Positions 9,157-64,000 of a stretch of DNA of 64,000 nt are shown here, one piece after another. Made by a program: the position numbers and the translations under genes. Under the pieces are notes generated by a model, which worked only from the letters and a program-made list of their open reading frames with translations, was not told where the DNA came from and did no database searches. Source of the DNA: Thermodesulfobacteriota bacterium (GTDB lineage Bacteria > Desulfobacterota_D > UBA1144 > Nemesobacterales > Nemesobacteraceae); contig OZ242294.1 in NCBI GenBank assembly GCA_965207685.1, forward strand, positions 1,226,677 to 1,290,676, given 5' to 3'. Position 1 is the first letter of the stretch, and each line of letters opens with the position of its first letter.

Positions 9157-9196
9157 AAACCCATCGGACAGGTGGAACAGGAGAAAACCTCGAACG

Positions 9197-19958: not shown

Positions 19959-19999
19959 CTTCTGACTGAGAATTATATACCAGTACCCTTCTGAAAGCT

Positions 20000-21560: not shown

Positions 21561-21622
21561 TAACTCGGTAAAACGATATATAATATTTTCCGTAAGGCGC
21601 AGTCTTTTACCCAAAGTGCAGG

Positions 21623-21997: not shown

Positions 21998-22037
21998 GCC
22001 TTGATTCCCCTGAATTTGCGTATACCATCTTCGTTCT

Positions 22038-23258
22038 GTGAAATACCTTATACTACAAGGCGACGGCATGCCCGACCACAAGCTCCCAGAACTTGAAGGC
22101 AGGACTCCGCTTGAAGTCGCTGACACCCCTAACCTTGACGCGATCGCCAAGCGGGCCGAGATTTTCGGGATCGCAAAGACCATTCCCGACCCTCTTCCCC
22201 CGGGAAGCGACGTGGGAAACCTCGCGGTGCTTGGCTATGACCCGACGAAATACTACACGGGAAGATCCCCTCTCGAAGCCGCGAGCATAGGCGTCTCGCT
22301 CGGGGAAACGGATGTCACAGTCCGCTGCAACCTGGTAACCCTGAGCGAAGAAAATGGCCACACGGTGATGGAAGACTACAGCGCCGGACACATAGCGGAT
22401 GAGGATGCAGCCAGTATAATCGAGGATCTGAAAAAGGAGTTCGACGGGGAGGAGTTCTCGCTAAGCCAGGGGGTAAGCTACAGGCATCTTCTTCTCTGGC
22501 GAGGAGGAAACAGCGATATTCAAACAACCCCTCCTCATGACATTTCAGGAAAGAAAACCGCCCCATGGCTTCCTTCGGGAGAAGGGGCGGAAAAACTCGT
22601 CATACTCATGGAGAGATCCCGCAAGATACTGAAAGACCATCCCGTGAACAAAAAAAGAAGGACCGAGGGGAAAAACACCGCAGACTCCATATGGCTCTGG
22701 GGCGAAGGGACAAGGCCCGAGATGCCGTCCCTTTCAGAGCTTTACGGGATCACAGGATCCGTCGTATCGGCGGTTGATCTGGTAAAGGGAATAGGAATAT
22801 TCGCCTCGATGGAAGTAATCGAGGTTCCGGGAGCTACCGGGTACCTTGACACAAACTACGCGGGGAAGGTAAGCGGCGCGCTTGAGTCGCTGCAGCGCGT
22901 GGACCTTGCTATGATCCACATAGAGGCGACGGACGAAACGGGTCACGTCGGAGATGCCCGTCTCAAGATACAGGCGGTTGAAGATTTCGACCAGAAGGTA
23001 GTAGGACCCGCACTTGCGGGTATGGAGCAGTTCGGCCAATACAGGGTTCTAGTGCTCTCCGATCATCCAACCCCCATAGACCTGAGAACCCACTCAAACG
23101 AGCCCGTTCCCTTCGCCATACTCGATTCCGCAAACTCTTCGGTAAAAGACAACTCGCTTGTCTACACAGAGGACTGCGCCGCCGCAAGCGGGGTGTTCGT
23201 CAAAGAAGGCTGGAAGCTCATGGGAACACTTGTCGGAAAGCAGTACGTTCAAAGATAG
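22038..23258 (+). CDS. apgM: cofactor-independent phosphoglycerate mutase, archaeal type
   Basis: 406 aa with the metalloenzyme motifs of the ApgM/PF01676 family (LQGDGMPD, HIEATDETGH, LSDHPTP). Confidence 0.75.
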   Translation: MKYLILQGDGMPDHKLPELEGRTPLEVADTPNLDAIAKRAEIFGIAKTIPDPLPPGSDVGNLAVLGYDPTKYYTGRSPLEAASIGVSLGETDVTVRCNLVTLSEENGHTVMEDYSAGHIADEDAASIIEDLKKEFDGEEFSLSQGVSYRHLLLWRGGNSDIQTTPPHDISGKKTAPWLPSGEGAEKLVILMERSRKILKDHPVNKKRRTEGKNTADSIWLWGEGTRPEMPSLSELYGITGSVVSAVDLVKGIGIFASMEVIEVPGATGYLDTNYAGKVSGALESLQRVDLAMIHIEATDETGHVGDARLKIQAVEDFDQKVVGPALAGMEQFGQYRVLVLSDHPTPIDLRTHSNEPVPFAILDSANSSVKDNSLVYTEDCAAASGVFVKEGWKLMGTLVGKQYVQR

Positions 23259-24154
23259 TACTTAAGCCCGACCGTAACGGTCCAGTTGTCTGTGTCATCC
23301 ACCTCGAAATCTGACGTAAGGGGTGTAACTCCGTCGGCGCGCACGGGTTCGTGGTCCCGGACTTGCGTCCAGGACACATCGTCGCGGTCATAACCGCTAA
23401 AGCGCGTCCAGCGGACCTTGGCGCCAACTGAGAAATCGTCGCCAAGCGCGTAATCAACTCCGCCTACTAACTGGAAGCCAAATCTGGTCTTCCCAAGCGC
23501 GGTAGCTAAAGAGCTGGTCGTGCCCTCCGCGGCATCCTGCCACGGCTCCGTTCCCAAATCGCTCTTCCGCAGGAATTTCACCGAGTAGCGCATTTCCGTC
23601 GAGGCTATACCTATACCGGCTCCAACATAAGGCGTAAAAGGTGAGTCGTTGCGCAAGTCGTAGTAGGCGTTCAGGAAGAGATGATGAGCGTTCAGATCAT
23701 ACACACGTTCTGAAGGAGGGTCGTTCTCATCCCATTCGCTAGTCTTCTGATCAAGAGGGTCGTCACTGTCCGAACCGATGCGCACGAGCCTGCTCTCGGA
23801 AGCCTGACGGCGGTTAAGGTACTCCGCTTCAAAGCGCAGCCCGTTGCCAAGCGCATAGCCAAAAGTCGCACCACCCACATACCCCAGGCCGGGGCCAAAA
23901 ACATTCGCAACGGTGGATGCCTTATCGGCCGTACATTCCGCATCAGTCGGCGGAGTCGTACCTGAGGGATAAAGAAGGGAGTCGCACCGGGTCGGGTGAT
24001 TTATAAAGGAATGAGAGACATCCAAGTCTCCCGACTTTGAAAATCCCCCTTCAAGCCCGATATAGAACCTATCCTCAGCCGAAGCTGAAGACGAACCAAA
24101 GATCAAAAGCAAGGCCGCAAGCCAAAAACACGTATTTGCCGCCACATATCTCAT
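23249..24154 (-). CDS. outer-membrane beta-barrel protein (OmpA-like/porin superfamily)
   Basis: Signal peptide (AALLLIFGSSSASA). Alternating amphipathic beta strands and a C-terminal aromatic end (LKYYL). Confidence 0.55.
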   Translation of the reverse strand: MRYVAANTCFWLAALLLIFGSSSASAEDRFYIGLEGGFSKSGDLDVSHSFINHPTRCDSLLYPSGTTPPTDAECTADKASTVANVFGPGLGYVGGATFGYALGNGLRFEAEYLNRRQASESRLVRIGSDSDDPLDQKTSEWDENDPPSERVYDLNAHHLFLNAYYDLRNDSPFTPYVGAGIGIASTEMRYSVKFLRKSDLGTEPWQDAAEGTTSSLATALGKTRFGFQLVGGVDYALGDDFSVGAKVRWTRFSGYDRDDVSWTQVRDHEPVRADGVTPLTSDFEVDDTDNWTVTVGLKYYL

Positions 24155-43058: not shown

Positions 43059-43132
43059 GCGGGTGTAGCTCAGCTGGCCAGAGCATTGGCTTCCCAAGCC
43101 AAGGGTCGCGGGTTCGAATCCCGTCGCCCGCT
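43059..43132 (+). tRNA. tRNA-Gly (anticodon CCC)
   Basis: Folded by hand: acceptor stem GCGGGTG/CGCCCGC, D-arm GCTCAGCTGGCCAGAGC, anticodon stem TTGGC/GCCAA with loop TTCCCAA (anticodon CCC at 43093-43095), T-arm GCGGGTTCGAATCCCGT, discriminator U. Confidence 0.8.
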
Positions 43133-43245
43133 CTCACTGCCCAAAAACTGTATTTATTCCGGTCATCACGTTAATATCAAATTTGCCCAGTTTCTATTGA
43201 TAATTTGACCTGAGTTCTATTGACAATTTCACCCTTTTTGATAAT

Positions 43246-44559
43246 GTGTTCAGAAAATTATACGGAGAAAAAACGGTGTCTGAACAAGAAGAGATTTTAC
43301 CGCGTCATTTGTCGACGAAACTCGATAAGGCCCTAGATTCGGCAAGAATAGTAAACATTGTAGGTCCTAGACAGGCTGGAAAAACTACATTGGTACGGGA
43401 TTTGCATAAAAACGGCAGATTCATCACGCTTGACGACGAATCAATGCTCATGGCTATAGAAAACGATCCTGGCGGACAACTCGAAAGCCTGACGACTGGA
43501 CTAGAGACGGAACCTCTGATAATTGACGAAATCCAACGCTCAAAGGGGCTAGTTCTGGCGATCAAAAAGAAAGTCGACGGCAATCGCCGTAAAGGTCAGT
43601 TTATCCTGACGGGTTCTTCAAATATTTTCATGTCCCTTGGAGTCGCCGACTCCCTGGCCGGCCGAATGAGAGTGCTCAAGCTATGGCCGCTGACTGTCTC
43701 GGAAATCAGGAAGCGAAACCCTTCGAGGATACTGACGTGGGCCTTGCGGCCTGCACCGAAACTCGCCGCGCTACCAACACCTGAAAAAACGGACCGTAAG
43801 TCTTACATCGACATAATTCTGCGAGGCGGCTTCCCGGAAATTTTCCCCTTGGAGGCAGAAGAACGGCAAGAATATTATCGGGACTATGTTGACGCCATTG
43901 TGGACAGAGATGTGGCCGACGTTCTTCCCGTACGGAAAACGGATGCCCTCCGACGACTTATCAATCAACTGGCCGTGAGAACCGCTATGGAGTTGAACCT
44001 CTCTGAAATCTGCGAACTGGTCGGCGTTCAACGTAACACGCTTGAGCAATACCTCGAGGTGCTCTTGCGCCTGTCCGTGGTAAACAGGCTGGGAGCATGG
44101 GCGTCGGGCGAATCTAGGCGAGAAATCAAAAACGCAAAAAACCACTTTGTAGACACGGGGGTCGCCTGCGCTCTACGCAGACTGACATCCGAGAGTTTTC
44201 ACGCGGACGCAAATCCAGCTGCATTAGGTGGTCTGCTCGAAAGCTTCGTCTATTCAGAGTTGCTACGTTCAGTTCCGTATCAGGATCAGAATTTTCACTT
44301 TTATCACTGGCGAGACAGTCGCGGACGCGAAATAGATATTGTGGCTGAATCCGCAACTCGACTGATCTGCATCGAAGTGAAGGCTTCAACCACGATCTCG
44401 CCTCAGGATTTGAAGCACCTCAAGTGGTTTGCGAAAAAAGGGCCTGGAACCACCAGAGAAGTGATAGGCTTGGTATTTTATCTCGGCCAAGAAAAGCTCA
44501 GCTTCGGAAACGGCATCTTCGCTCTGCCGGTCAGCATACTGTGGAGCACCGTGTCTTAA
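43246..44559 (+). CDS. AAA+ ATPase with DUF4143 C-terminal domain
   Basis: Walker A GPRQAGKTT, Walker B LIIDEIQ, 437 aa. Confidence 0.75.
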   Translation: MFRKLYGEKTVSEQEEILPRHLSTKLDKALDSARIVNIVGPRQAGKTTLVRDLHKNGRFITLDDESMLMAIENDPGGQLESLTTGLETEPLIIDEIQRSKGLVLAIKKKVDGNRRKGQFILTGSSNIFMSLGVADSLAGRMRVLKLWPLTVSEIRKRNPSRILTWALRPAPKLAALPTPEKTDRKSYIDIILRGGFPEIFPLEAEERQEYYRDYVDAIVDRDVADVLPVRKTDALRRLINQLAVRTAMELNLSEICELVGVQRNTLEQYLEVLLRLSVVNRLGAWASGESRREIKNAKNHFVDTGVACALRRLTSESFHADANPAALGGLLESFVYSELLRSVPYQDQNFHFYHWRDSRGREIDIVAESATRLICIEVKASTTISPQDLKHLKWFAKKGPGTTREVIGLVFYLGQEKLSFGNGIFALPVSILWSTVS

Positions 44560-51672: not shown

Positions 51673-53184
51673 TTATTTCATGAACTGATCAATGTAAACC
51701 ATCAGCCTACTCTGAAATCCCCAGATCGTATCGTCGGCTGTGGAACCGTCTCCGGCTTTAGCTTCAAGCAGGTCTTGAAGACCGTCTCCAGCGAGTACCA
51801 AGCTTCCGATGAAGTCAAGGTTTACGCCTGGATGAAGCGTCCAGGTAAGCGTTCCCTCAATCTCTGTACCGAGATAGTCGTCAACTTCAGTCGCTCCAAT
51901 ACCCGAACCGAAAAGACCGCTGTCAAAAGCCGAAACCGCATTAGTCTCGTCGTTCCAGGCAAACAGAACCTGAGGAGTTAAAGACAAGTTCTCAGCAAGA
52001 TTCACGTTCGCGTACGCCCTAGCGTAGATAGCGTTTATTACGCTTCCCTCTATCTGGTAGATAGTCGGAATGACGTGCTTGAAGAGAAGGTTATCTACGT
52101 TATAGGCCGGGCTGAACGGAAGGGCATTACCTTCAATCGTCAAAAGCGTATCACCGTCATCACCCTGCGCCCAACCGGCTTCAATACCTATAGCACTTAC
52201 CTGAGCCATCGTTGAAGGATAGATCTCAAGGCGGCCCGCCATGTCGAAAGCGTAGTCAAACTCAAACGCTGCCCCTGTAAAATCGGGCCCTCCTAAAGCA
52301 CTTGTATCTCCCGCTTCGAGTTCTCCCCCTCCGAACATCTGGACCTCATAGGTAAGGCTCCAGTTAGCAGCCTTAAGCACTAGAAGACCTGCATATAGAG
52401 AAGTGCGGTCAAGATCCCAATTGTAACCTAGGCCGGGGCTGAATACGTCGTTCTGATGCAGGTACGGGAATCCGTACGCTCCAACGGTCACGTTTACATC
52501 TCCCATCTGCTGGTTGTAAATACCCGCCGCGGCAAGTATGTCATAACCTGTACCGCTTGTACCGGCGAATAGGCTGGTTCCCTGAGTAAATACATCGGAC
52601 ACGAGAACCAGAGTAAAGGTTCCGGCACCCGCCGGGAAGGACTTGAGCCAAAGCAACCTGTCAACCACGAAACCGAGGTCCGAATGCGGATCATGTCCTC
52701 CGTTTGCGAGAATTCCGAGGCCCCAGTCAAAAGGCTGGCGTCCTACTCTAACAAAACCAAGGTTGTTCGGAAGAACTATGTCCGCGTGAAGCATGCGAAC
52801 GTTAAAATATCCGAAATCGTCGTCAAAGGTCTTAGCCCCTGTCAGAACCGCACCTCTGAAACGATCGGCTGGCCTCAAGTCTGAGAGCACCACGCTGTCG
52901 TTGTCACCAAAAAATCCGCTGGTAACACCACCCCATACCATGTTGTTCGCAACATCGACCTGAGCCCTAACGGTAACCGCATCGCTCAAGCTCAACTGGG
53001 GGGTGATCCTGAGTGTTGTGTCAGTGATATTAATCCTCTCACCGCCGGCGGTAGCATTGTCAATGACACGAGTTCTCGTTCTCATATAGCTCGGAAATCC
53101 GCCAAGCGACCAGTCTATCGCAAATGACGGAACCGACATGCCGAGAACGGCGAAAAATATAATAAGCCATCTGGCTTGAATCAT
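51673..53184 (-). CDS. uncharacterised outer-membrane beta-barrel protein
   Basis: 503 aa. Signal peptide (IFFAVLGMSVPSFA), Gly/aromatic-rich alternating strands, C-terminal ...IDQFMK. Confidence 0.5.
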   Translation of the reverse strand: MIQARWLIIFFAVLGMSVPSFAIDWSLGGFPSYMRTRTRVIDNATAGGERINITDTTLRITPQLSLSDAVTVRAQVDVANNMVWGGVTSGFFGDNDSVVLSDLRPADRFRGAVLTGAKTFDDDFGYFNVRMLHADIVLPNNLGFVRVGRQPFDWGLGILANGGHDPHSDLGFVVDRLLWLKSFPAGAGTFTLVLVSDVFTQGTSLFAGTSGTGYDILAAAGIYNQQMGDVNVTVGAYGFPYLHQNDVFSPGLGYNWDLDRTSLYAGLLVLKAANWSLTYEVQMFGGGELEAGDTSALGGPDFTGAAFEFDYAFDMAGRLEIYPSTMAQVSAIGIEAGWAQGDDGDTLLTIEGNALPFSPAYNVDNLLFKHVIPTIYQIEGSVINAIYARAYANVNLAENLSLTPQVLFAWNDETNAVSAFDSGLFGSGIGATEVDDYLGTEIEGTLTWTLHPGVNLDFIGSLVLAGDGLQDLLEAKAGDGSTADDTIWGFQSRLMVYIDQFMK

Positions 53185-53525: not shown

Positions 53526-54248
53526 TCATCCCCGCCCGAAAAAACGAAGCGTAACGAAGGGTATCAGGCTAAGCACGGGTGAAAGCGCAAGCTGCGCCGT
53601 AGCGCTTTTCCGAAGAGGCTCCTTCATCGCCATTATCCCCGAGTAAAGCGAAGCAGGGTTCCCAACCAACCCTTTTACGGTCTCGCAGAAGAAAAACACG
53701 TTCCGGGGACTCAGCAAAAAAACCAGCAGGTTAAATACCAGAAATATCAGAACTCCCTTCGCAATAAGACTCAGCGTCCTTCCCCAGACAAGGGAGTTAA
53801 CAGCTTTCCTCGTGAGGTTTCCCCCATAATACCTGGCAAGCATTCCCCCGAGAATGACCGTCATCATGATGCTTATCCCGAAACCGAAAAGAAAGACCAG
53901 GCACTTACTGAAAAGATCGGCCGTCCCCCCGAAAGCCGGAATCACCTCCTCCCAAACCCCCCAGGCAAGCGGAAGAAGCAACCCCAGAAACGCCCCCTCC
54001 CAGAAACCGCTTCGAAAGCCCACCATGAAAAAAGTGAGCACCCCCCTCATAGTGAGGAAGTCAGAAGGTATGTCCTGCCCCGTGCGCTCTATTATATGGT
54101 ACTGCTGTATCTCCGATATCGCGTCTATAAGGTTGCGCGGGGACGCGTGAGGCGAAGACGATATGGGGGTGAAACCTCCCCGCCCGCCGCTCACGGCCTT
54201 TTTCCTCCACATATAAAGTGGGAGAAAACAGGAGGTTTCGCGACCCAC
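53526..54248 (-). CDS. hypothetical integral membrane protein
   Basis: ~5 hydrophobic segments. The start is uncertain. Flanked by AT-rich DNA. Confidence 0.4.
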   Translation of the reverse strand: MGRETSCFLPLYMWRKKAVSGGRGGFTPISSSPHASPRNLIDAISEIQQYHIIERTGQDIPSDFLTMRGVLTFFMVGFRSGFWEGAFLGLLLPLAWGVWEEVIPAFGGTADLFSKCLVFLFGFGISIMMTVILGGMLARYYGGNLTRKAVNSLVWGRTLSLIAKGVLIFLVFNLLVFLLSPRNVFFFCETVKGLVGNPASLYSGIMAMKEPLRKSATAQLALSPVLSLIPFVTLRFFGRG

Positions 54249-54548
54249 AGGTCAACTGGAACAGTCGCCCCGGGAAATTTTTCGGAAAAAGGTTTGGACA
54301 TTTGAAGGGAAATGTAATACTAAGCCTTTTAAATGTCCAGACTGCCATAACCAGCCGAATCAAGATTCACTCTTCTTTCCTATGAGTTGGGCAATTAAAA
54401 TAGCGATTTGAAGATTGCGTGCGCAAACTTGAATTCTGAATTCAAATATGTAGAATTGAAATCAAAGGTTCCTCCCTGATGACAAGAACCCAAGGGGTTC
54501 TCTCCGGTAACGGAGTAGTTGGGGAGGTCGTTTTTTTAGATTTACCCT

Positions 54549-55208
54549 CTAATAATAGTATCTCATTCCACTTCGGAAAATACTGAATTCGCTTCGAATC
54601 CCCTCCTTTATACGATCATAGTATTCTGTCTCACCCCTCTGCCATTTCCGAAACACAGCCCAGCAGCAGTAATCCGCGACCTGCAGTCCGTAGTGCGAAC
54701 GCGACGCGTGATGCAGGATGTGATATCTCCTGCCCTGCGGCAACATCTTCGCCAACGCGAGCTGGACACCTTTTTCAATCGCCCGCCTTTTCTTATTAAC
54801 CGGAACCGTATCAGTTATTACTATGACATCGTCAGCGTCCTCCCCCAACTGGGGAACAAGGAATTTTAACAGGTATCCGAGCATTTCCGGGTAGAAGCGC
54901 TTTACATCCTGAAGGGCCGGGCCGGTTTTTCTTTTCTCAACTACAAGACAGTCAATACGCATGCTTCCAAGATTTCTGGCGATCAGATCAAATATGCTGT
55001 TGCGGACGTGAATGTTGTCTTCTGAGCAGTGGAAATACTCCATCCCCAAGCCGTATTCGAGACAATCGTGTCTGTAGGCGTCAAGCTTCTGGTATATAGG
55101 AAACGGTCGGCGCATACTGATGCTCGTCAATATAAAGTAAGGCGTTCCGTTTGTGCTGAAGTCGAGATTGCCCGCTTCATCAAGAAAAATGTAAGTGCAG
55201 GGTGTCAT
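54549..55208 (-). CDS. DUF3800-domain protein
   Basis: Start at MTPCTYIFLDEAGN. The N-terminal YIFLDE.G and C-terminal GLQVADYCCWAVF are the two hallmark motifs of DUF3800. Confidence 0.6.
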   Translation of the reverse strand: MTPCTYIFLDEAGNLDFSTNGTPYFILTSISMRRPFPIYQKLDAYRHDCLEYGLGMEYFHCSEDNIHVRNSIFDLIARNLGSMRIDCLVVEKRKTGPALQDVKRFYPEMLGYLLKFLVPQLGEDADDVIVITDTVPVNKKRRAIEKGVQLALAKMLPQGRRYHILHHASRSHYGLQVADYCCWAVFRKWQRGETEYYDRIKEGIRSEFSIFRSGMRYYY

Positions 55209-55550
55209 ATTCTTTCCTTCCACAAGACCCGCCCAGTCCGGCAAAATCGTAAAAAGCGTGGAAACCGGACTGGATACCCGCTTCAAGGCTTGATCCAACT
55301 CCGCTTATTTCCAGTGAACTCCTTTGCCGTTAACAATCAAGAAGCGGCTGGTTGAAGTAGAAATTCAGCAGATTGATCTTGGAAAATACCTGATCGGCAT
55401 TCTCAAACCAATAATGTTTTTCAGTAAGGAAAAACCTGATTCTCTCGCACCCTGTGGACTAACCGGATTCGCCGTTCCTGGAAAATTTCTCAAAAAAAGA
55501 TATGGACATTCGGTACTAATTGTAATACACTGTATTTCAAATATCAAAAA

Positions 55551-56963
55551 ATGGACAAAAAAATAAAGGATGCCAACAGGAAAAACCAAGAAAAGACCCG
55601 GGAGAAAAACCCCTTGATCGGACTCCGCGTAAAGAAACTCAGCGACATCCCTCCGCCCGCGGGAATAGCCATAGGAGAGGGCGTCGCGCTTGACTGCGAT
55701 CCCGAAACAAAGCCCGCCCCGGTAACGGTTCCCGACGCAGACCGCGAGGGACACATATTCACCATGGGCGCCACGCGAAGCGGAAAGACCCGCCTCGCCG
55801 AGGGCATGATAGAGCACGATATAAGGGCGGGGAGAAGCATCCTGTGGATAGACCCCAAGGGGGATAACGCTATTTTCTCAAAAATAGTGGCCACAGCCAG
55901 GGAAACAGGAAGGGAAGAGGATCTTCTTTTCTTCTCCCCGGTTTTTCCCCGCTACTCGGTAAAGATAGACCCTCTCTCTCACTACTTCATGCCCGAGGAG
56001 GTCGTTAACCACGTCGTCTCGGGAGTACGGGTCCGCGAGGAGTTCTACTTCAACATAGCCTACGAGGTGACGCTCGTCGTGGTGCAGGGACTCATGCTGA
56101 TATCGAGATCCCTCGGGGAGCGACCTATGTTCACCTTCCGCAGGATAAAGGAGAACATAGGCTACAGGGAACTCGAGGGCCTTCGCGCCCAGATAGCCGA
56201 GATAGACGATCCCGAGGCGGAGGAGATCCTCATGAACCTCGACCAGATCCTATCCTCTCCCCAGGACTACTTCTCCAAGGTCTCCTCAAGCCTCCGTACC
56301 GTGATAACGTCGCTTAGCTCGGGTTCGGTGGGAGAAATCATCGGCAAGGACACATCAAACCGGTTCATAGAGCGCCTTGAGGCGGGAAAGAGAGTGATAC
56401 TCGTCGTGCAGACAGGCTCACTTCTCACCAGGAAAACGGCGCATATAATGGCGCGGGTGCTTCTCTCCATGGTGCAAAGCTTCGTAGGCAGGGTGCTGGC
56501 TTCTCACCGGAAGATCGACCCTCCCTTAGCAGTGTACGCAGACGAGGCGTCAAATGTCCTTTACTTCGGGATAGACGACCTTTTCAACAAGGCGGGCGGA
56601 GCCGGAGTGTGGATTCACATGCTGACCCAGAGCAAGCAGGATCTCGTGGCCGAACTCGGCCCAGCCTACACGGGCAAGATACTCGACAACACGAACACCA
56701 AGGTAGTTTTCCGCGTTAACGACCCCAACACCGCAGCCTACGCCTCCCGCATGGCCGGGACGAGAAAAAGATTCTCCCCAATAATGAGTCTCGGCGGGGG
56801 TCTCAGCTTGAGGGAGATAGAGGAGAGCAGGGTGCCGCCCGAGAGCTTCCTTAGGCTCGGGCGAAGGGAGTTCTACGCCTTTACCTTCGACGGCATATAC
56901 AGGGGCAGGACCCTCGATGTGAGTCCGTGCGAGGAAATACGGTTCCCGGAGATAAAAAACTGA
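55551..56963 (+). CDS. traD: type IV coupling protein-like ATPase (TraD/TrwB/VirD4 family) without N-terminal transmembrane anchor
   Basis: Walker A GATRSGKT followed by ILWIDPKGD, Walker B VYADEAS, a TQSKQDL sensor, and a TraG-D_C-like NTNTKVVFRVND. The N-terminal 60 aa are charged and not hydrophobic. Confidence 0.7.
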   Translation: MDKKIKDANRKNQEKTREKNPLIGLRVKKLSDIPPPAGIAIGEGVALDCDPETKPAPVTVPDADREGHIFTMGATRSGKTRLAEGMIEHDIRAGRSILWIDPKGDNAIFSKIVATARETGREEDLLFFSPVFPRYSVKIDPLSHYFMPEEVVNHVVSGVRVREEFYFNIAYEVTLVVVQGLMLISRSLGERPMFTFRRIKENIGYRELEGLRAQIAEIDDPEAEEILMNLDQILSSPQDYFSKVSSSLRTVITSLSSGSVGEIIGKDTSNRFIERLEAGKRVILVVQTGSLLTRKTAHIMARVLLSMVQSFVGRVLASHRKIDPPLAVYADEASNVLYFGIDDLFNKAGGAGVWIHMLTQSKQDLVAELGPAYTGKILDNTNTKVVFRVNDPNTAAYASRMAGTRKRFSPIMSLGGGLSLREIEESRVPPESFLRLGRREFYAFTFDGIYRGRTLDVSPCEEIRFPEIKN

Positions 56964-56986
56964 TGAAGGAGAAAAGGAGAACCAAA

Positions 56987-58360
56987 ATGAAGTACCTACC
57001 GCAAGTGGCGATCAGCTGGGAGACGGCAGCCGCGTTTTCGCTTCTCTGCTTCTCCCTGGGCGCGACCTTCTGCGCGCTTGCGCTAAGACGCAGAAGAGAA
57101 AAACGAAGCGGACCCGAGACAATAGAGTTCATAACGGCTTCGGCGGCGAGAGCCTCGCAGAGACAAGACGGCGCAGAATCAGGAACCATAGGAGCTCTCG
57201 CGGAGAGCCTCTGGCTGAGAAGCGATCCCGGGCTTGCGGTGCTCTCGGATTCAGAACCTTTGGTCGTAACCACCTTCAAAAATCCAGAGACCCAAACTTT
57301 CTGGACAGAAGAGATAGAACCCAATCGCCGACTCTTTGAGAAAAGACGCGAACTTGCGGTAATAGAGAGGGTTCTCCTAGAGCTTGATGAACATGGCCTC
57401 TGCTCAAGTGTCGTTTCTGGGGACGGGAAAAGCGCGTTTTTGCCAACTGCAAAGAGATTCTCGCGCGTTACCCTGCTTGACCACTCGCTTCGGGTAGCGC
57501 GGTGCATGAGGGGAATATACGATTCGCTCTACACGGAGAGAATTCTCTACGGGAAGCATCTCATCGCCGCTCTCGCCCACGATGTCGGAAAAATGGAGCA
57601 CCTGCGCCCCGAAGACAAGCGCTACATAAAGGATGACCACGCGGCGGCATCGGCAAGAGCGCTTAACGGTTGGATAATGGAGTGCGGGGGAGAAAAAGCC
57701 GCTTTTGAGTTTCGCTCCGCGGTGGACGCCGTCAGGAACCATCACAGAAGCGCAAACGCACCCGATCCCATTCTGGAGAACCTCAAAAGAGCGGATACGG
57801 CGGCACGGGAGGAGGAATTCTCGGGCGTGCGCAAAAAGCCACGCCCGGCGGCCGCGCCCGACGGCGGCACGGATGCCGAACCACCCGGGTGGCTCCTTCG
57901 CGACATGCCCCAGATACTAAACGACCATGTGGGGCCCGCAATAAACATGGCGGCACTCGAGGAGGCTCCCTTTGCCCGGGCGATCTCCTCCACAAACGGG
58001 ATCGTCTACGTCGATCCCCACTACCTTTTCGACGGCGTTAGGGAGCATATGGAGCGGGAGGAGATAGCGGACATGAGATTTTTCGACCCGTCCCGCCCCG
58101 CGGAGCTTCAGGCAAAGCTCCTGGTAACAAACTCACTTAAATCCCGCAACTGGGTGGGCGAAGGAGTTCGCGACGGCTACTACGCTGCCTTCTGGAATTA
58201 CGAGTATAGGGGGAAGAAGGTAAGAAAAGGCGGTTTCTGGATACCCGTTTTCGCGGAAGCGTTTGAAGTGCCGCTTTCCGAACTTGAAAAAAGAAAAAAC
58301 GCGGAGCTTCGCCGGATCACTTCCGTTGGGCCGTGTCTTGCGCGGGGACGGAAAAAATAA
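56987..58360 (+). CDS. membrane-anchored HD-domain (metal-dependent phosphohydrolase) protein
   Basis: Start at MKYLPQV. It is preceded by GGAGAAAAGGAG and follows the coupling-protein stop. One transmembrane helix (AAAFSLLCFSLGATFCALAL), then HD motifs H...HDVGK. The region upstream of this start is arginine-rich. Confidence 0.55.
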   Translation: MKYLPQVAISWETAAAFSLLCFSLGATFCALALRRRREKRSGPETIEFITASAARASQRQDGAESGTIGALAESLWLRSDPGLAVLSDSEPLVVTTFKNPETQTFWTEEIEPNRRLFEKRRELAVIERVLLELDEHGLCSSVVSGDGKSAFLPTAKRFSRVTLLDHSLRVARCMRGIYDSLYTERILYGKHLIAALAHDVGKMEHLRPEDKRYIKDDHAAASARALNGWIMECGGEKAAFEFRSAVDAVRNHHRSANAPDPILENLKRADTAAREEEFSGVRKKPRPAAAPDGGTDAEPPGWLLRDMPQILNDHVGPAINMAALEEAPFARAISSTNGIVYVDPHYLFDGVREHMEREEIADMRFFDPSRPAELQAKLLVTNSLKSRNWVGEGVRDGYYAAFWNYEYRGKKVRKGGFWIPVFAEAFEVPLSELEKRKNAELRRITSVGPCLARGRKK

Positions 58361-58424: not shown

Positions 58425-58838
58425 ATGAAAAATAAAAAAACAGGCAACGTTACACTCGTCCTTGGCCAGACACCGTACGGGCAGCTCGAGCGGGAAGCCC
58501 GCAAGAGAGCGCTCTCGCCGGGAGACTATCTCGAGATGCTGATAGAAATGGATCACATCTCCAACACGGGAGGTGACCCGGGGGAAATGGTGTCCGTGTC
58601 AATATCGGAGAGACACTACTCCCTTCTTCGCCGGGAAGCGGAAGCTGCCGGACGCGGGGCGGACAAGAGCGCCGAGATGATAATAGGCATCTCGGCGGAG
58701 ATGCTCCCTGAGAGGCCGCTTTCGAGGGAGAGGTTTGACGCCGTGGTGGAAGCGTGGGGAGGTGTCGATTTTCCGAGCGAGAGGAAACAGGGAAACGCGC
58801 AGGAGCGCGGAAACTCTCTTCAGAAAGCCTCGTCCTAG
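58425..58838 (+). CDS. small protein with two tandem ribbon-helix-helix-like repeats (TraY-like relaxosome accessory protein candidate)
   Basis: 137 aa. Two beta-strand + helix units (VTLVLGQTPYGQLEREARKRALSPGDYLEMLI and VSVSISERHYSLLRREAEAAGRG...MIIGI). It sits immediately upstream of the pilin gene, as traY does in F. Confidence 0.45.
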   Translation: MKNKKTGNVTLVLGQTPYGQLEREARKRALSPGDYLEMLIEMDHISNTGGDPGEMVSVSISERHYSLLRREAEAAGRGADKSAEMIIGISAEMLPERPLSRERFDAVVEAWGGVDFPSERKQGNAQERGNSLQKASS

Positions 58839-58962: not shown

Positions 58963-59310
58963 ATGAAAACCACATTACTAAGGAGGCTGGCTAATATGAA
59001 AACATACGAGGCAAGATTTCCCCGCGCCGTCGCAGCCGCGCTTTTAACGGTGGTCGCGCTGGCACTTTTTTTCCCGGACACGGCACTCGGGGGGACCACG
59101 GGCACGGAGTTCCAGAGCATCTACGACAAGGTAAAGGGATGGTCCACCGGCTACCTGGGGAGGCTGCTTGCGCTCTGCACTTTCATAATAGGTCTCGGGG
59201 CTTCCATCATGCGCCAGACCCTTTTTCCCGCGCTCACGGGAATAGGAGTGGCGCTCGTGGTCTCGCTCGGCCCGTCACTCATAGAGGGAATCGCCACGGG
59301 AACGTTCTAG
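58963..59310 (+). CDS. traA: F-type conjugative propilin TraA
   Basis: The leader ends ...VVALALFFPDTALG (compare F TraA ...AAVLMMFFPQLAMA). The mature part is ~72 aa with two hydrophobic segments. The position before traL-traE-traK-traB fits. Confidence 0.65.
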   Translation: MKTTLLRRLANMKTYEARFPRAVAAALLTVVALALFFPDTALGGTTGTEFQSIYDKVKGWSTGYLGRLLALCTFIIGLGASIMRQTLFPALTGIGVALVVSLGPSLIEGIATGTF

Positions 59311-59577
59311 ATGAGAACGAGAATCCCGAGATACATAGACGACCCTCCCCAGATATTCTGGTGGGAGATCGATGAAGTGGCGCTTTTCAGCGGGGCGTTC
59401 GTGATCGGGGCGCTTTCGGGTCAGACGCTCGGAGGACTGCTCGCGGGCTTTGTCCTTTCCTGGCTGCTTGAGCGCCTCAAATCCGGGCGGGGAAGCGCCT
59501 TTCTCGTTCACCTTGCCTACTGGTACGGTCTCTCGGGGGTAAAGCCCGAGAGTCACAGAGAGAGGTTCTTCGAGTGA
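59311..59577 (+). CDS. traL: TraL-like type IV conjugative transfer protein
   Basis: 88 aa. RIPRYIDDPPQIF...DE...LKSGRGS...YWYGL pattern matches F TraL (R.P..LD.P..I.G...DE ... LK.GRG ... YW..P). One transmembrane segment. Confidence 0.6.
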   Translation: MRTRIPRYIDDPPQIFWWEIDEVALFSGAFVIGALSGQTLGGLLAGFVLSWLLERLKSGRGSAFLVHLAYWYGLSGVKPESHRERFFE

Positions 59578-60164
59578 TGCTGATACGCACGTTCCGGGAG
59601 AGATGGCTTAACCTGGCCCGGGAAAACGGCCTGCTTCGCTTCGCCGTGGGGGCACTCTGCGTAACGGTAGCGCTTCAGGGCTGCCACATGAAAAAGCTCT
59701 CCGAACGCACGACCGTGCACGTTCACGTGCCCGAATACATGCAAAAGGACTTCACCGTCAGCGCAGCGGGAACGGCTTCGCTCGCCTACACCGAGCAGTG
59801 GGCGCTCAGTCTCCTTCCCTTCGTAGCGTCCTTCACCGCGGAAACCGTGGACTTTAACATAAGGCAGTTCCTCCTCTACGTTCACCCCGAAAGCTACGAC
59901 CCCATTTCCGGATTCCTGCTTGAAAAATCAAAAGAGATAAAAACAAGCGGAGTCGCCCAGGCTTTTTTTCCGAAAACGGTGGCCATGGAGGAAGAAGGAA
60001 CGGTTGTGGCGGTAAGCGGACAGCGCACCAGGGTAGTCGGTAACGTGGTGACCGACCAGAGGGAGGTTGTCTACAGGATCCACTTCGAACTGGGGGTTAA
60101 CAACCGTCCGCTCGTAACCGAACTTATCGAAAACGAAGGAGGGCAAGGTGCAGATGAATACTGA
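59574..60164 (+). CDS. traE: TraE-like (VirB8-like) inner-membrane conjugation protein
   Basis: 196 aa with an N-terminal transmembrane helix, in the position and size expected for traE. The sequence match is judged weakly from memory. Confidence 0.45.
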   Translation: MMLIRTFRERWLNLARENGLLRFAVGALCVTVALQGCHMKKLSERTTVHVHVPEYMQKDFTVSAAGTASLAYTEQWALSLLPFVASFTAETVDFNIRQFLLYVHPESYDPISGFLLEKSKEIKTSGVAQAFFPKTVAMEEEGTVVAVSGQRTRVVGNVVTDQREVVYRIHFELGVNNRPLVTELIENEGGQGADEY

Positions 60165-60870
60165 TCTTCCCTCGCGCACTCTCGCTGTCTTCGTCGCGGC
60201 ATTTTTTGCTTTCGCCACTACCGCAACCGCTCTCACCATAGATCTCGGAAAAACCCGGGAGGAAGAACCGATATCGATCGGGGTATCCCGCACCGACACA
60301 AACAGGATCAAACTTCCGGAAACCATAATAAACGCCTTCAGTTCAAACGGGTCGATTGACGTAAAGATAATCGACCGCTCGGCGCTTGTAAGAGCAGAAG
60401 ATCCGGCGGAACTAATAATCTTGACCGGGAAAAGAAGGCTAACCCTGCTGCTTTCGCCCGAGGATGGCCCCTCGCGCACCGTCATAATGAGGGACGAAGA
60501 CTCACCGTCCCCAGATCCGGCCAAGGAGGCAACAGGAAGCGCAGAGCCCCTACCCTACGAAAAAGCCATAACGGAACTCGTGCTCTCCCTGGCCTCGGGT
60601 TCCTCCGATACGGAAAAAACCTCAGAAAAAGAGCAGGAATTCTCACCCTCGCCCTCCCTTTTCCTCGCACGCCACGCGGAGGCGGCATCGCCTCCCCTTT
60701 TCGCCTCGCTCTACATGGTAAGAAACGGGGGATCCAAAAAAGTCGTTCTCACGGAAAGCATGTTCTCCTCAGACCCCGAAACGGTAGCCGTGGGCATGGA
60801 GCGGGACGAGCTTTCGCCGGGAGAGTCCGCGCGGATCTTCGTGGTCACGAAAAAGGAACCTGGGCGATGA
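60148..60870 (+). CDS. traK: TraK-like (VirB9 N-domain/secretin-like) periplasmic protein
   Basis: 240 aa with a signal peptide (AVFVAAFFAFATTATA), in the position and size of traK. Family call by synteny. Confidence 0.45.
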   Translation: MQMNTDLPSRTLAVFVAAFFAFATTATALTIDLGKTREEEPISIGVSRTDTNRIKLPETIINAFSSNGSIDVKIIDRSALVRAEDPAELIILTGKRRLTLLLSPEDGPSRTVIMRDEDSPSPDPAKEATGSAEPLPYEKAITELVLSLASGSSDTEKTSEKEQEFSPSPSLFLARHAEAASPPLFASLYMVRNGGSKKVVLTESMFSSDPETVAVGMERDELSPGESARIFVVTKKEPGR

Positions 60871-62025
60871 TCGGGAAGATACGGAAAATCTACGCCGAAA
60901 GAAAACGCCAGACTCTCGCCGCGGCGACCGTACTGTCCGGGTTTGCCATCGTGGCCCTGGTTCTGCTCCTGCTCGGAGGAGAGGAAAAGGGACTGCTCGG
61001 GGAGAAGAAAACGCAGGGAAGCATAAAGATTCTGCGGGGAGTGGATCTTGCCCGGGAAAAATGGCGCATAGAGGGGGAAAAGCGCCTGGGAATGATAGAG
61101 ACCGAACAGAGGGAGATAAGAAAAGAACTGGAAGCAATTTCCTCCGCGCTTGGGGAGTTCAAGAAGAAATCTTCCGAACCGTACCCCTACCCGCCTCCAC
61201 TCGTCGGGAACGAAGCCTCACCCGAAGCGGAGTTCCCTCCCGCTCCGCTCCTGCCGGGCGCGGCCGAAACGCCGCCCGAGCCCCCGAAAAGACAAAACCC
61301 GATACGGGTTTTCTCTCCCATCGGGGGCATCCCGGCCGAGGAATCGGCCCCAGAGCCTGCGCTTGTTAACTGGATTCCCTCGGGAAGCTTTGTTCCGGGA
61401 GTACTCCTAAGCGGCCTCGACGCCCCCACAGCAACCGCTTCCTCGCGAAATCCGCATCCCGTGCTGATACATCTCGTGGAGGCTTCGCGCCTGCCCGGCC
61501 TGCGGCGTATGAACATAGCGCGCTGCCACGTGACGGGAGCAGGGTACGGACAGCTCGCAAGCGAGAGAGCGTACGTGAGGCTCGAGAGGATGGCGTGCGT
61601 GCTTCGTTCGGGAGACGTGATAGACACCAAGATAAAAGGATATGTGGCCGGAGAGGACGGAAAGACCGGGAATCCGGGGAAGGCTGGTTTCAAAGCAGGG
61701 AAAGATGCTCTCGCGGGGAATCCTGGCCGGCTTTGCCTCGGGCTTCGGCGAGGTGGTTGAAACTTCGAATTCAACATCCGGGGTGGTCGCGGGCGGAACA
61801 TTTACCGTGAGTTCCAGGAGTTCCCGGGATCTTGTGAAGACAGGAATCGGGGGCGGGGCTGGGGAAGCCGGAAGGCTTCTCGCGGAGTACTATCTCAAGC
61901 TCGCCGAGGAGGTGTTTCCGGTAATAGAGATAGACGCGGGGCGCCGAGTCGACGTGATCATAACCGAGGGGATGGAGCTTGCCCCCAGAAAAACCGACTA
62001 CGCCGCAAGGAAGGAAAAGGGATGA
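60867..62025 (+). pseudogene. traB: TraB (VirB10-like) gene with apparent +1 frameshift near 61650-61760 (two overlapping ORFs 60867-61760 and 61642-62025)
   Basis: The first ORF has an N-terminal transmembrane helix plus a Pro-rich linker (PYPYPPPLVG...PPAPLLP...PPEPP) and the start of a beta-domain (IDTKIKGYVAGEDGKTG). The second ORF continues in another frame with the VirB10-like tail (LSRGILAGFASGFGEVV...GRRVDVIITEGMEL). Confidence 0.6.
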
Positions 62026-62525
62026 GGAAATTCGCCCCGTTCCTTATTTTTTTCGCTCTGTTCGCTACGGCCTGCGCCGGCGGGTCGTCGCGCTACGGCT
62101 GCCCAGCGGCATCGGGTCATTCATGCAAAAGCGTCTCAGAGGTTTATGCCGAGACAATTTCGGGTCGCAGAAGCGGTGCGGATCCTCTCTCTCCGGGCAA
62201 CGGAAAAAGCGCGCGCGAAGGCGTGAGAAAAAAGTTTCTGAAAGGCAGCGCTTTCCGCCCCGGGAAAAATGAGCGGAGCGAAGCGGGAACCACCCAGACC
62301 GCGCAACCGGAGAAAACGATGCCCGTTTATGTTCCCCCGCGCACAATACGCCTCTGGATAGCCCCGTGGCAGGATGCCCGGGGCGTCTTTCACTCGGGCA
62401 AATACGTGTACCTGCTTTCGGGCAGGGGGCGGTGGACTATAGGCGGCAAAGCTGTTCCGCTCGGAGAGTCCGATAGAGGGTATCCGCAAAACATCCGCCT
62501 CCGGGGAACCGGGAGGGTTCCCTGA
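62022..62525 (+). CDS. traV: TraV-like outer-membrane lipoprotein
   Basis: 167 aa. Signal peptide with Cys (LFATAC) and a C-terminal IRLWIAPWQDARGVFHSGKYVYL motif typical of TraV. Confidence 0.6.
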   Translation: MRKFAPFLIFFALFATACAGGSSRYGCPAASGHSCKSVSEVYAETISGRRSGADPLSPGNGKSAREGVRKKFLKGSAFRPGKNERSEAGTTQTAQPEKTMPVYVPPRTIRLWIAPWQDARGVFHSGKYVYLLSGRGRWTIGGKAVPLGESDRGYPQNIRLRGTGRVP

Positions 62526-64000
62526 TGGGCGTTGCGAAAGAGCGGCTGCGGGAGCTTGCCGCAAGGGATTCGCTTTCGGATTACCTTCCCTATGTGGCAT
62601 GGGAAGAGGGGATGTACGTTCTGGCCGACATGTCGCTCGGCTTCATATGGGAAATAAACCCGCTTCTTTTCGCAGGAGAGGACGCAAAGAGGATTCTCGG
62701 CGGAATGCTCGGCAACCGTGTGCTTCCACCGGGAACCTCGGTCAAGTTCCACGTGTTTGCCTCCGAGCTCATATCCCCGTTTTTCCCCGAGGAAGAAACG
62801 GCGCAAGCCAGGATCTGCCGGGAGATCGCCGCCGAAAGAAAGCGGCTTTACACCCTCGAGATGCGCGACAGAGTCGGGACCCCCGCGAGGGATTTCCGGT
62901 TTCTCGTGTCGGTGAGGATTCCTTCCGGCTTCGGAAAAAAGAAAGTTGCGGAATCCGTGTGGGACAAGCAGACGGAGGACACCCGCAAGCTCGGGGCGAA
63001 CGTGGCGGGGGTTCTCAGTTCCGCGCAGCTTTACCCGCGCGACCTCCCTCCGGCCGAGCTGATACTCGTCCTGCGCGAGGCGCTTAACCCCGATGCGCGC
63101 TGGTATGATGACCCTTACTATCTCGGCACCGGCGGTCTCTATAACCGAAACGATGAGATAAGAAACCAGATAATAGACCGAGAGACGATGATAGAGGTGC
63201 GGGCGGGGGAAATAAAGCTCGGGGACTCTCACCTGCGGGGATATTCCCCCGCATCCATGCCCGAGTACTTTTCGCTCGACGAGTTCCACGAACTGCTTGG
63301 AGATCCGTTGCGGGGACTCTCGCAGGTGCCCGTGTATTTTTTCCTGCAGGCGGGATTCGTCGTCCCGGAGAGAAAGAAGGCCTCTCAGGTAAGTGCCAAG
63401 GCCGTCATGGTGAAGCAGCAGAGCTTCGGGCTCGTGACGAGATTCATTCCAAAGCTCAGGAAAAAAGCGGAGAACTTCGACTTTTTCGTAAACGCCCTTG
63501 AGGACGAGGACCTGGTCATGGGATCCCTGAGCCTCTTTCTCCGGACCCGAAGCGACGAGGAGGCCGAGAGGGTAAAGGAGATGGTAACGGGGATATGGAG
63601 GGCCAGAAACTTCGATCTTCGCGAGGAAAAATACATACTGCTCCCCCTCCTGCTCGAGGGCCTCCCGCTCGGCTCGGAGCCCGCGTTCGTCCGCCTTCTC
63701 AGGCGGAATTCAACGATGCAGACCTCGGCCGGGGCATCCATGCTTCCCGTCATGTCAGACTGGAAGGGAACGGGCTCGGGACCTCTTACCTTCATATCGA
63801 GAAGGGGACAGATAATGAAACTTGATCTTTTCAGCTCAGCTTCCAACTACAACTGCGCGGTGTTCGCCCAGTCGGGCTCGGGAAAGTCCTTTCTAACCTC
63901 GGACATGATCACCGGATATCTTTCGGAGGGGGCGCGGGTGTTCGTGATAGACATAGGCCGCTCATACGAGAAGCTCTGCGGTCTCGTGGGCGGTGAGTTC
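62524..64000 (+). CDS. traC: TraC (VirB4-family) conjugative ATPase, N-terminal ~490 aa (continues past window end)
   Basis: Translated by hand from the ATG at 62524: MGVAKERLRELAARDSLSDYLPYVAWEEGMYVLADMSLGFIWEINPLLFAG ... NYNCAVFAQSGSGKSFLTSDMI...VFVIDIGRSYEKLCGLVGG. This parallels F TraC (GFMLEAIP ... CGTSGAGKTGL ... FDMGDGYKSLC). Not in the ORF track because no stop falls in the window. Confidence 0.85.

What the first reader, a model, noticed from the sequence alone, without database searches (positions are those of the whole stretch)
55551..58360. Coupling ATPase without a membrane anchor, followed by a membrane-anchored HD-domain protein
The TraD/VirD4-like ATPase has all the motifs of a coupling protein. 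It begins with ~60 charged residues instead of the two N-terminal transmembrane helices that normally anchor coupling proteins. The next gene's start sits in a strong RBS right after the ATPase stop. It encodes a single-transmembrane-helix protein with an HD phosphohydrolase domain (H...HDVGK), which is not a standard F-system component. One possibility is a split coupling module where the anchor is supplied in trans. Another is that the HD protein is a MobH-type (HD-fold) relaxase or nuclease partner. A third is a novel ATPase + HD nuclease pair, such as a defense or exclusion function riding on the element.
Basis: partly seen in the sequence, partly recalled or inferred. Interest (0 to 1): 0.6.

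Follow-up and report, generated by a model that had tools for sequence, protein, structure and literature searches.

The report
Split coupling ATPase with HD-nuclease partner
A DNA-transfer (conjugation) gene cluster encodes its coupling ATPase without a membrane anchor; the anchor is a separate four-helix membrane protein nearby, and the HD-domain protein that follows is the best candidate for the DNA-nicking enzyme that no annotation tool finds in this kind of system.

Summary
The 470-aa TraD/VirD4-type ATPase (55551-56963) has no transmembrane helix. It is followed by a 457-aa protein (56987-58360) with one N-terminal TM helix and a complete HD metal site, at the head of an F-type tra cluster (TraA-L-E-K-B-V-C).

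It is not a truncation: hundreds of homologues are about 440-470 aa. The missing anchor is most likely not the HD protein. An uncharacterised 4-TM protein (53526-54248, minus strand) sits beside this TraD type in most loci examined, across several phyla. It is fused to TraD in two 697-aa proteins, and in the one fused locus examined the HD gene still follows. This is a split coupling protein, a class already known from pIP501 TraJ/TraI.

The HD protein belongs to a large family (677 clusters) that lies next to this TraD in 14 of 15 loci outside the close Dadabacteria set, and in 8 of the 9 PLSDB plasmids that carry this TraD. Of the eight HD-family plasmids, seven are typed non-mobilizable, so no relaxase was recognised. 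The HD core resembles MobH and Cas3/Cas10 nuclease HD domains, but it fails the MobH tests (no TraI_2 match, no HHH motif).

Best reading: a membrane-tethered, MobH-like HD nickase. This is unproven. Campylobacterota variants carry an inserted GGDEF domain, which keeps a signalling role open. A defence role is not supported.

The parts
51673..53184 (-). 503-aa protein with a signal-peptide-like N-terminus and no family match; it forms the left end of the conserved block
   Evidence: No Pfam hit. N-terminal hydrophobic segment. Present next to the 4-TM gene in 22 of 25 related chromosomes; the flanks to its left differ between genomes.
53526..54248 (-). 4-TM membrane protein (probable start at ATG 54212, about 228 aa) with the cytosolic N-terminal motif DAISEIQQYHIIE..G..IP.DFLT; proposed membrane anchor of the TM-less TraD
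   Evidence: TM scan. Homologues lie beside the short TraD in Dadabacteria (L001, L005, L006), in a Desulfosarcina-like contig and the Desulfosarcina BuS5 plasmid (L003; split in L002), in two further metagenome/MAG contigs (L018, L019) and in Campylobacterota plasmids (L007, L012). The protein is fused N-terminally to TraD in P0145 and P0150, both 697 aa. No Pfam or NCBIfam family.
54303..55480 (-). 1.18-kb inserted cassette carrying a DUF3800 gene (54549-55298); it separates the 4-TM gene from traD
   Evidence: Absent from the 95%-identical relative L022 and present at the same place in L031. Pfam DUF3800 2e-13.
55481..55550 (+). Conserved intergenic element GGACATT-N11-TGTAATAC just upstream of traD (the relatives have GGACATTT or AGACATTT, spacer 10-11 nt); probably a promoter or operator and a candidate oriT region. 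A second copy at 54273-54302 flanks the cassette.
   Evidence: Alignment with the 4TM-traD intergenic regions of L001, L005 and L006. About 30 bp are duplicated on both sides of the insertion. Inverted repeat at 54292-54342.
55551..56963 (+). TraD/VirD4-type coupling ATPase lacking the N-terminal membrane domain (Walker A GATRSGKT, Walker B-like VYADEA)
   Evidence: 535 homologues with a median length of 445 aa among the 120 listed.
56987..58360 (+). Single-TM HD-domain protein: TM 13-34, helical pre-HD region with the invariant CxSVV serine, HD domain about 160-280, disordered linker 282-293, C-terminal alpha/beta domain 300-450. Candidate nickase.
58425..58838 (+). 137-aa protein with two strand-helix repeats, in the position that traY holds in F (directly upstream of traA). 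Possible ribbon-helix-helix relaxosome accessory factor.
   Evidence: Conserved in L001, L005 and L006. No family hit. hhalign against F TraY is not significant, E 0.24. Position compared with F.
58963..60870 (+). F-type pilus and channel genes traA (58963-59310), traL (59311-59577), traE (59574-60164) and traK (60148-60870)
   Evidence: NCBIfam TraA_gammapb 1.5e-22, TraL 4.2e-19, TraE 2.7e-26, TraK 4.3e-6.
60867..62025 (+). traB, split into two overlapping ORFs by a frameshift near 61,660-61,700
   Evidence: NCBIfam TraB hits on both ORFs. tblastn shows the switch from frame 1 to frame 2. A single open frame spans this region in L022.
62022..64000 (+). traV (62022-62525) and the N-terminal part of traC (from about 62525; runs off the window)
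   Evidence: NCBIfam TraV 4.3e-11. Translation and 63-97% identity to the TraC regions of the related loci.

Best explanation
The region is the DNA-processing and coupling end of an F-type conjugative (T4SS) gene block carried on the chromosome of a Candidatus Dadabacteria-like bacterium. (1) The coupling protein is split. The soluble TraD ATPase (55551-56963) is held at the inner membrane by a separately encoded 4-TM protein (53526-54248). That protein has an even number of helices, so both of its ends are cytoplasmic and its C-terminus can dock onto, or in some relatives be fused to, the N-terminus of the ATPase. (2) The next gene encodes a membrane-tethered HD metal-dependent nuclease. I propose it is the nickase ('relaxase') of this T4SS clade. 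Its N-terminal TM helix would keep it beside the coupling protein. Its C-terminal alpha/beta domain, with the small repeat protein encoded downstream, would recognise an oriT. Its HD centre would cut the transferred strand, probably by hydrolysis as proposed for the MobH relaxase TraI of Neisseria. TraD would then feed the single strand into the F-type channel. Shown here: gene content, lack of TM helices, conservation, adjacency, the fusion, the intact metal-binding motif and the nuclease-type HD similarity. Inferred: physical docking of the 4-TM protein to TraD, DNA nicking, the position of oriT, and the role of the small protein.
Confidence: 0.5

Rival explanations
1. The HD protein is a regulatory phosphohydrolase acting on a nucleotide second messenger (c-di-GMP or a related molecule). 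It gates the coupling ATPase rather than cutting DNA; the nicking enzyme is something else.
Against: There is no HD_5 match and no GYP motif in the family. The profile comparison with HD_5 proteins is not significant (E 0.12), whereas the comparison with MobH gives E 1e-7. The closest sequence hits are DNA nucleases. The GGDEF insertion is confined to one lineage. The conserved C-terminal domain and the adjacent small repeat protein fit DNA recognition better. This reading leaves the missing relaxase unexplained.
Confidence: 0.2
2. The HD protein is an accessory nuclease of the transfer apparatus, for example one that trims or degrades DNA at the channel or acts in entry exclusion. A still unrecognised relaxase is encoded elsewhere in the element.
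For: It fails the MobH membership tests. The membrane anchor is incompatible with transfer of the enzyme into the recipient. Only about 20 kb around the gene could be inspected in the Dadabacteria genomes. pCIG1485E contains other candidates, namely a toprim protein, a UvrD-like helicase and several large hypothetical proteins.
Against: No other gene with nuclease potential is shared by all the contexts seen. The strict adjacency to the coupling protein across at least five phyla is the classic relaxase position (PMC12857230).
Confidence: 0.2
3. An ATPase plus HD-nuclease defence or exclusion pair that merely rides on the element.
For: PADLOC gives a weak mad8 hit for the ATPase (3e-14) and Cas3-HD hits for the HD protein (4.6e-7).
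Against: The ATPase matches TraD families far better (1.3e-47). The pair lay within F-type tra genes wherever enough of the contig was available to judge, and in PLSDB the HD family was found only in plasmids that carry this TraD. No defence-system architecture matches.
Confidence: 0.03
4. The TM-less TraD is a truncated pseudogene in a decaying element.
For: traB in the window is frameshifted, and a DUF3800 cassette has been inserted upstream of traD.
Against: The short form is conserved at 68-97% identity in 25 species-level genomes and in hundreds of other sequences of the same length. The start region aligns with relatives, and no TM-coding remnant lies upstream.
Confidence: 0.02

Closest known systems
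T4CPs lacking a transmembrane domain that work with a small membrane protein (pIP501 TraJ with TraI), and the R27 TraG-TraJ pair
   Same: A VirD4-family ATPase whose membrane association depends on a small multi-pass membrane protein of about 200 aa encoded next to it (PMC7434980).
   Different: Those examples come from a Gram-positive plasmid (pIP501) or involve a T4CP that still has its own TMD (R27). Here the system is an F-type T4SS of diderm environmental phyla. The 4-TM partner has no detectable similarity to DUF4400 (the Yaa-position membrane gene of a MobH plasmid) or to a canonical TraD N-terminus. Natural fusions show that the two parts belong together.
MobH (MOBH) relaxases, prototype TraI of the Neisseria gonococcal genetic island; the SXT/R391, IncA/C and GGI-like module MobH-TraD-small membrane protein
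   Same: An HD metal centre used for DNA cleavage; membrane association through the N-terminus; a catalytic domain, a disordered linker and a C-terminal globular domain; a gene adjacent to a TraD-type T4CP and an MPF_F system; a conserved Tyr a few residues before the third His (TraI Y212/H215, here Y213/H218) (PMC6736028, PMC4207684).
   Different: No TraI_2 or TraI_2_C HMM match and no SExHHH alternative 3H motif. The spacing between HD and the third His is much shorter (about 20 versus about 50 residues), and there is an additional HH pair (H252/H253). The anchor is a true TM helix rather than an amphipathic helix. The gene lies downstream of traD instead of upstream. The protein has 457 aa, against about 540-900 aa in the MobH sequences collected here.
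Short MobH-like HD nucleases proposed as relaxases of 'Hodor' gut megaplasmids (bioRxiv 2026, PMC12934698)
   Same: An HD nuclease inferred to replace the missing canonical relaxase next to T4SS and T4CP genes.
   Different: Those proteins hit the TIGR03760 HMM by HHsearch and pair with a separate helicase. The family here does not hit MobH models with HMMER, and no adjacent helicase was seen.
Cas3''/Cas10 HD nuclease domains and the YhaM HD exonuclease
   Same: The best non-generic sequence and structure matches of the HD core; all of them cut single-stranded nucleic acid.
   Different: The scores are far below family cut-offs, there is no CRISPR or helicase context, and the flanking domains differ.

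Membership tests
VirD4/TraD type IV coupling protein | FtsK/HerA-like NTPase domain with Walker A/B that matches the T4CP HMMs | tested here: met
   TraG-D_C 2.4e-12, T4SS-DNA_transf 2.9e-7 and TrwB_AAD_bind 8.9e-7, all above the Pfam cut-offs. GATRSGKT and VYADEA are present in the sequence.
VirD4/TraD type IV coupling protein | N-terminal transmembrane domain in the same polypeptide | tested here: not met
   No TM segment. The SXT_TraD profile is matched only from position 162. The membrane domain is present in cis only in the fused relatives P0145 and P0150.
SXT_TraD (TIGR03743) / conj_TOL_TraD (TIGR03754) equivalogs | Full-length score above the curated cut-off | tested here: not met
   162.6 bits against a cut-off of 366, and 127.2 bits against 647.6. 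This is a related but distinct TraD clade.
T4CP lacking TMD with a small membrane partner (pIP501 TraJ/TraI class) | TM-less T4CP plus an adjacent small multi-pass membrane protein | tested here: met
   The 4-TM gene lies beside traD in 9 loci from several phyla and is fused to it in two proteins.
T4CP lacking TMD with a small membrane partner (pIP501 TraJ/TraI class) | Physical interaction that recruits the ATPase to the membrane | not testable with these tools
   Needs a two-hybrid assay, co-purification or a multimer structure model.
MobH (MOBH) relaxase | TraI_2 relaxase domain (PF07514 / TIGR03760) | tested here: not met
   No hit at E<=1 for the window protein. None of 63 family members hits PF07514 at E<=0.01. 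The profile-profile comparison gives 94% / E 1e-7, but only over the HD core.
MobH (MOBH) relaxase | Alternative 3H motif (SExHHH) upstream of the first HD-domain histidine | tested here: not met
   MobH sequences have PASExHHH. The family here has GxCPSVV with an invariant Ser and no His triplet.
MobH (MOBH) relaxase | HD phosphohydrolase motif H..HD..K..H..D | tested here: met
   H166, H198, D199, K202, H218 and D270 are invariant. This feature is shared with the whole HD superfamily.
MobH (MOBH) relaxase | C-terminal TraI_2_C domain (PF07515) | tested here: inconclusive
   No HMM hit. hhalign of the C-terminal domain against the MobH profile gives colinear but non-significant matches (E 0.05 and 0.3). 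The confident model of the domain could not be compared on its own with 2IPQ.
MobH (MOBH) relaxase | Gene clustered with a TraD-type T4CP and an MPF_F system | tested here: met
   compare the MobH-TraD plasmid L008.
MobH (MOBH) relaxase | Site-specific, Mn/Co-dependent cleavage of oriT single-stranded DNA | not testable with these tools
   Biochemical assay required.
HD-GYP c-di-GMP phosphodiesterase | HD_5 (PF13487) match and the HHExxDGxGYP signature | tested here: not met
   No HD_5 hit in 63 members. No GYP motif in the window protein. hhalign against HD_5 proteins gives E 0.12.
Yaa-position small membrane proteins of MobH/ICE systems (DUF4400, TIGR03747) | Sequence similarity of the 4-TM protein to these families | tested here: not met
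   No Pfam or NCBIfam hit. hhalign against DUF4400 from L008 gives E 0.047, probability 1%. The TM layout differs from both the DUF4400 (L008) and TIGR03747 (L009) proteins.
TraY-type ribbon-helix-helix relaxosome protein (for the 137-aa gene) | TraY/RHH HMM or profile similarity | tested here: not met
   No family hit. hhalign against F TraY gives E 0.24. Only the gene position and the strand-helix repeat pattern agree.

The most novel reading that the evidence does not exclude
The HD family (677 clusters at 50% identity) is a previously unrecognised class of conjugative nickase. It would be a membrane-tethered, hydrolytic HD enzyme, only distantly related to MobH, that works with a two-piece coupling protein. 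It would serve a large clade of F-type T4SSs in Dadabacteria, Desulfobacterota, Campylobacterota, Latescibacterota, Nitrospinota and others. Plasmids and islands now scored as 'non-mobilizable' would then be self-transmissible. Because the enzyme cannot leave the donor, DNA would be transferred without a pilot protein.
Probability: 0.35. Interest if true: 0.75.

Novelty: new variant of a known kind. Interest (0 to 1): 0.55.

Why it matters
Relaxase detection is the basis on which tools such as MOB-suite decide whether a plasmid or island can move. Eight PLSDB plasmids carry the HD gene next to this coupling protein. Seven of them are called non-mobilizable, including one typed as having an F-type mating apparatus and one shown here to carry a full F-type gene set. 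If the adjacent HD protein is the nickase, a whole clade of conjugative elements in poorly studied phyla has been overlooked. In that case a second, MobH-independent route from HD phosphohydrolase to DNA-transfer nickase would exist. A nickase fixed in the donor membrane would also bear on an open question raised by Neisseria TraI: whether conjugative DNA can be transferred without a covalently attached pilot protein. The split and fused forms of the coupling protein give a natural handle for studying what the membrane domain of T4CPs does.

Tried and rejected
1. Hidden start or exon giving TraD a TM domain: all three frames upstream were read and nothing was found.
2. Truncation artefact: rejected on conservation.
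3. HD protein as the anchor: rejected because the HD gene still follows the fused, self-anchored TraD and because 23 of 63 family members show no N-terminal hydrophobic segment.
4. Direct HMM membership in MobH: Pfam and NCBIfam on the window protein and Pfam on 63 homologues were all negative.
6. PDB sequence profile search: only HD hits.
7. 4-TM protein against DUF4400 and the canonical TraD N-terminus: no similarity.
8. Small protein against F TraY: not significant.
9. Defence reading: PADLOC gave only domain-level Cas3 and mad8 hits.
10. Inverted-repeat scan for oriT: only modest repeats. The conserved intergenic motif is as likely a promoter or operator as an oriT.
11. Accession look-ups for CP087953.1 and CP000603 failed and were replaced by hits from similarity searches.
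Full report
OBSERVATION. The two ORFs are as described. The 470-aa product of 55551-56963 matches the three T4CP Pfam families. It matches NCBIfam SXT_TraD (1.3e-47), but only from profile position 162 and well below the equivalog cut-off. A hydropathy scan finds no TM segment. The upstream sequence in all frames offers no TM-coding extension. The downstream ORF most plausibly starts at ATG 56987, behind AAGGAGAAAAGGAG, giving 457 aa. An alternative ATG at 56963 overlaps the traD stop codon. The protein has one TM helix (residues 13-34) followed by a basic cluster, so the bulk of it is cytoplasmic. Its only family hit is Pfam HD (3e-6). Downstream lie traA, traL, traE, traK, a frameshifted traB, traV and the start of traC, so this is an F-type (MPF_F) system.

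NOT A TRUNCATION. A search of 5.8 billion proteins gave 535 relatives of the ATPase. The best 120 have a median length of 445 aa. Named sources include Dadabacteria, Desulfobacterales, Latescibacterota and Thermodesulfobacteriota. The only hydrophobic stretch lies after the Walker A motif, inside the soluble domain.

WHERE THE ANCHOR IS. Two relatives are 697 aa long. Their extra N-terminal 260 residues form a 4-TM domain that begins with the motif SQIQQFYVIE..G.EIPD.FLT. The same domain is encoded as a free-standing gene directly upstream of, and overlapping, traD in a Desulfosarcina-like contig; it is split by a frameshift in the BuS5 plasmid. It also occurs in two further metagenome/MAG contigs, L018 and L019, one of whose TraD proteins a source names as Latescibacterota, and in Campylobacter and Nitrosophilus plasmids. 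In the Dadabacteria-like loci, including the window (53526-54248), it lies divergently upstream of traD. The family has no Pfam or NCBIfam model. It shows no profile similarity to DUF4400, the small membrane protein of a MobH plasmid, or to a canonical TraD N-terminus. With four helices both termini are on the same side of the membrane, consistent with its C-terminus continuing into the ATPase in the fusions. This is gene-fusion plus gene-neighbourhood evidence for a two-piece coupling protein. TM-less T4CPs that depend on a small membrane protein are an accepted class (pIP501 TraJ/TraI), and R27 TraG needs the 5-TM TraJ (PMC7434980). In the fused locus L004 the HD gene still follows. The HD protein is therefore not needed as the anchor. 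In the window a 1.18-kb DUF3800 cassette has been inserted between the 4-TM gene and traD.

THE HD PROTEIN. The close family (52-95% identity) is confined to Dadabacteria-like genomes. A profile search of 1.84 billion cluster representatives found 677 clusters (451 at E<1e-10). Most of the best-scoring matches span nearly the whole profile, in proteins of about 380-740 aa. In 63 diverse members the invariant positions are S141, H166, H198, D199, G201, K202, H218, H252, H253, D270, R274 and E277, and Y213 is nearly invariant. This is a complete dinuclear HD site. A model built from this alignment is confident (pLDDT 84). It shows a TM helix, a helical pre-HD region, the HD domain, a disordered linker (282-293) and a C-terminal alpha/beta domain.

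CONTEXT. A family member lies immediately beside the short TraD in the BuS5 plasmid, L004, L017, L018, L019, L020 (after an SLT gene) and Pelobacter pPRO1. The same holds for the Geobacter anodireducens, Trichlorobacter, C. iguaniorum, C. upsaliensis, Nitrosophilus and Aliarcobacter plasmids, and for all 25 Dadabacteria chromosomes. Thermovibrio pTHEAM01 is the one exception; there topA follows traD. Within PLSDB the HD family was found only in plasmids that carry this TraD, namely 8 of the 9 that do. Seven of those eight are typed non-mobilizable. Pelobacter pPRO1 is one of them and is typed MPF_F, as is Thermovibrio pTHEAM01, the ninth TraD plasmid. I read the whole of pCIG1485E (70 kb). It has traL, E, K, B, C, H, N, G, F, U, trbC and traD, but no annotated relaxase.

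COMPLICATION. In Campylobacterota the orthologue (800 aa in C. iguaniorum) keeps the N-terminal region and HD domain (E 5.6e-26) and the C-terminal domain (E 4.7e-5). The linker, however, is replaced by a GGDEF domain with an intact GGEEF motif, and an HD_5 gene precedes traD. Thermovibrio has GGDEF and EAL genes before traD. A link to cyclic-nucleotide signalling is therefore real in some lineages and sustains a rival reading.

THE ELEMENT. The block p503 / 4-TM / TraD / HD / small protein / TraA-L-E-K-B-V-C is colinear in 25 species-level chromosomes of 1.5-2.4 Mb. These are labelled Candidatus Dadabacteria or Thermodesulfobacteriota. The sequence to the left of the block differs between genomes. 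The window is 95% identical at the DNA level to L022 across the tra block. The small 137-aa protein occupies the traY position of F and shows two strand-helix repeats, but its similarity to TraY is not significant. A conserved motif, (G/A)GACATT(T)-N10-11-TGTAATAC, lies in the 4TM-traD intergenic region. It may be a promoter or operator, or part of an oriT.

VERDICT. The HD protein is best explained as the unrecognised nickase of this T4SS clade. It is MobH-like in context, architecture and HD core, but it is not a MobH family member by the tests run. I give the split T4CP about 0.85 and the nickase role about 0.5. Defence and pseudogene readings are rejected.

Noticed in passing
window 60867-62025: traB is split into two overlapping ORFs (297 aa and 127 aa) by a frameshift near 61,660-61,700. 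A single open frame spans this region in L022, which is 95% identical here. This is either an assembly indel or recent pseudogenisation.
   Followed up: partly
window 54273-55510: A 1.18-kb cassette carrying a DUF3800 gene (54549-55298, minus strand) is inserted between the 4-TM gene and traD. It is flanked by a direct duplication of about 30 bp that contains the conserved GGACATT...TGTAATAC motif. The same cassette sits at the same site in L031 (82% nt identity) and is absent from the other 24 related genomes in the set, including L022.
   Followed up: partly
window 51673-53184 (minus strand): A 503-aa protein with a signal-peptide-like N-terminus and no family match is conserved at the left edge of the tra block in 22 of 25 related chromosomes. 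It may be an unrecognised envelope component of this T4SS.
   Followed up: no
window 58425-58838: A 137-aa protein with two internal strand-helix repeats lies between the HD gene and traA, the position of traY in plasmid F. It may be a tandem ribbon-helix-helix oriT-binding factor, but sequence comparison with TraY was not significant.
   Followed up: partly
L007 (pCIG1485E) 19367-23715; L012 5391-9601; L011 4666-5939: c-di-GMP turnover domains recur around this TraD type. There is an HD_5 gene before traD and a GGDEF domain inserted into the HD-family protein in Campylobacterota. There are GGDEF and EAL genes before traD in Thermovibrio, where topA replaces the HD gene.
   Followed up: partly
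window 43059-44559: A tRNA-Gly(CCC) gene is followed by a DUF4143/AAA_14 ATPase that matches the PADLOC candidate defence family PDC-S01 at 2e-139. It lies outside the tra block.
   Followed up: no
L021 (BuS5 plasmid) 9010-9666: A 218-aa paralogue of only the N-terminal (pre-HD) part of the HD family sits upstream of a second tra segment (traL-traH) on the same plasmid. In the BuS5 copy both the 4-TM gene and the HD gene next to traD are split into two ORFs.
   Followed up: no
L010 5238-5966; L007 17835-18524; L012 3863-4552: A soluble protein of about 230 aa (sharing an IVLxRxSK motif) precedes the 4-TM gene, or traD directly, in the Pelobacter, Campylobacter and Nitrosophilus plasmids. It may be a further conserved partner and is not present next to traD in the window.
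   Followed up: no
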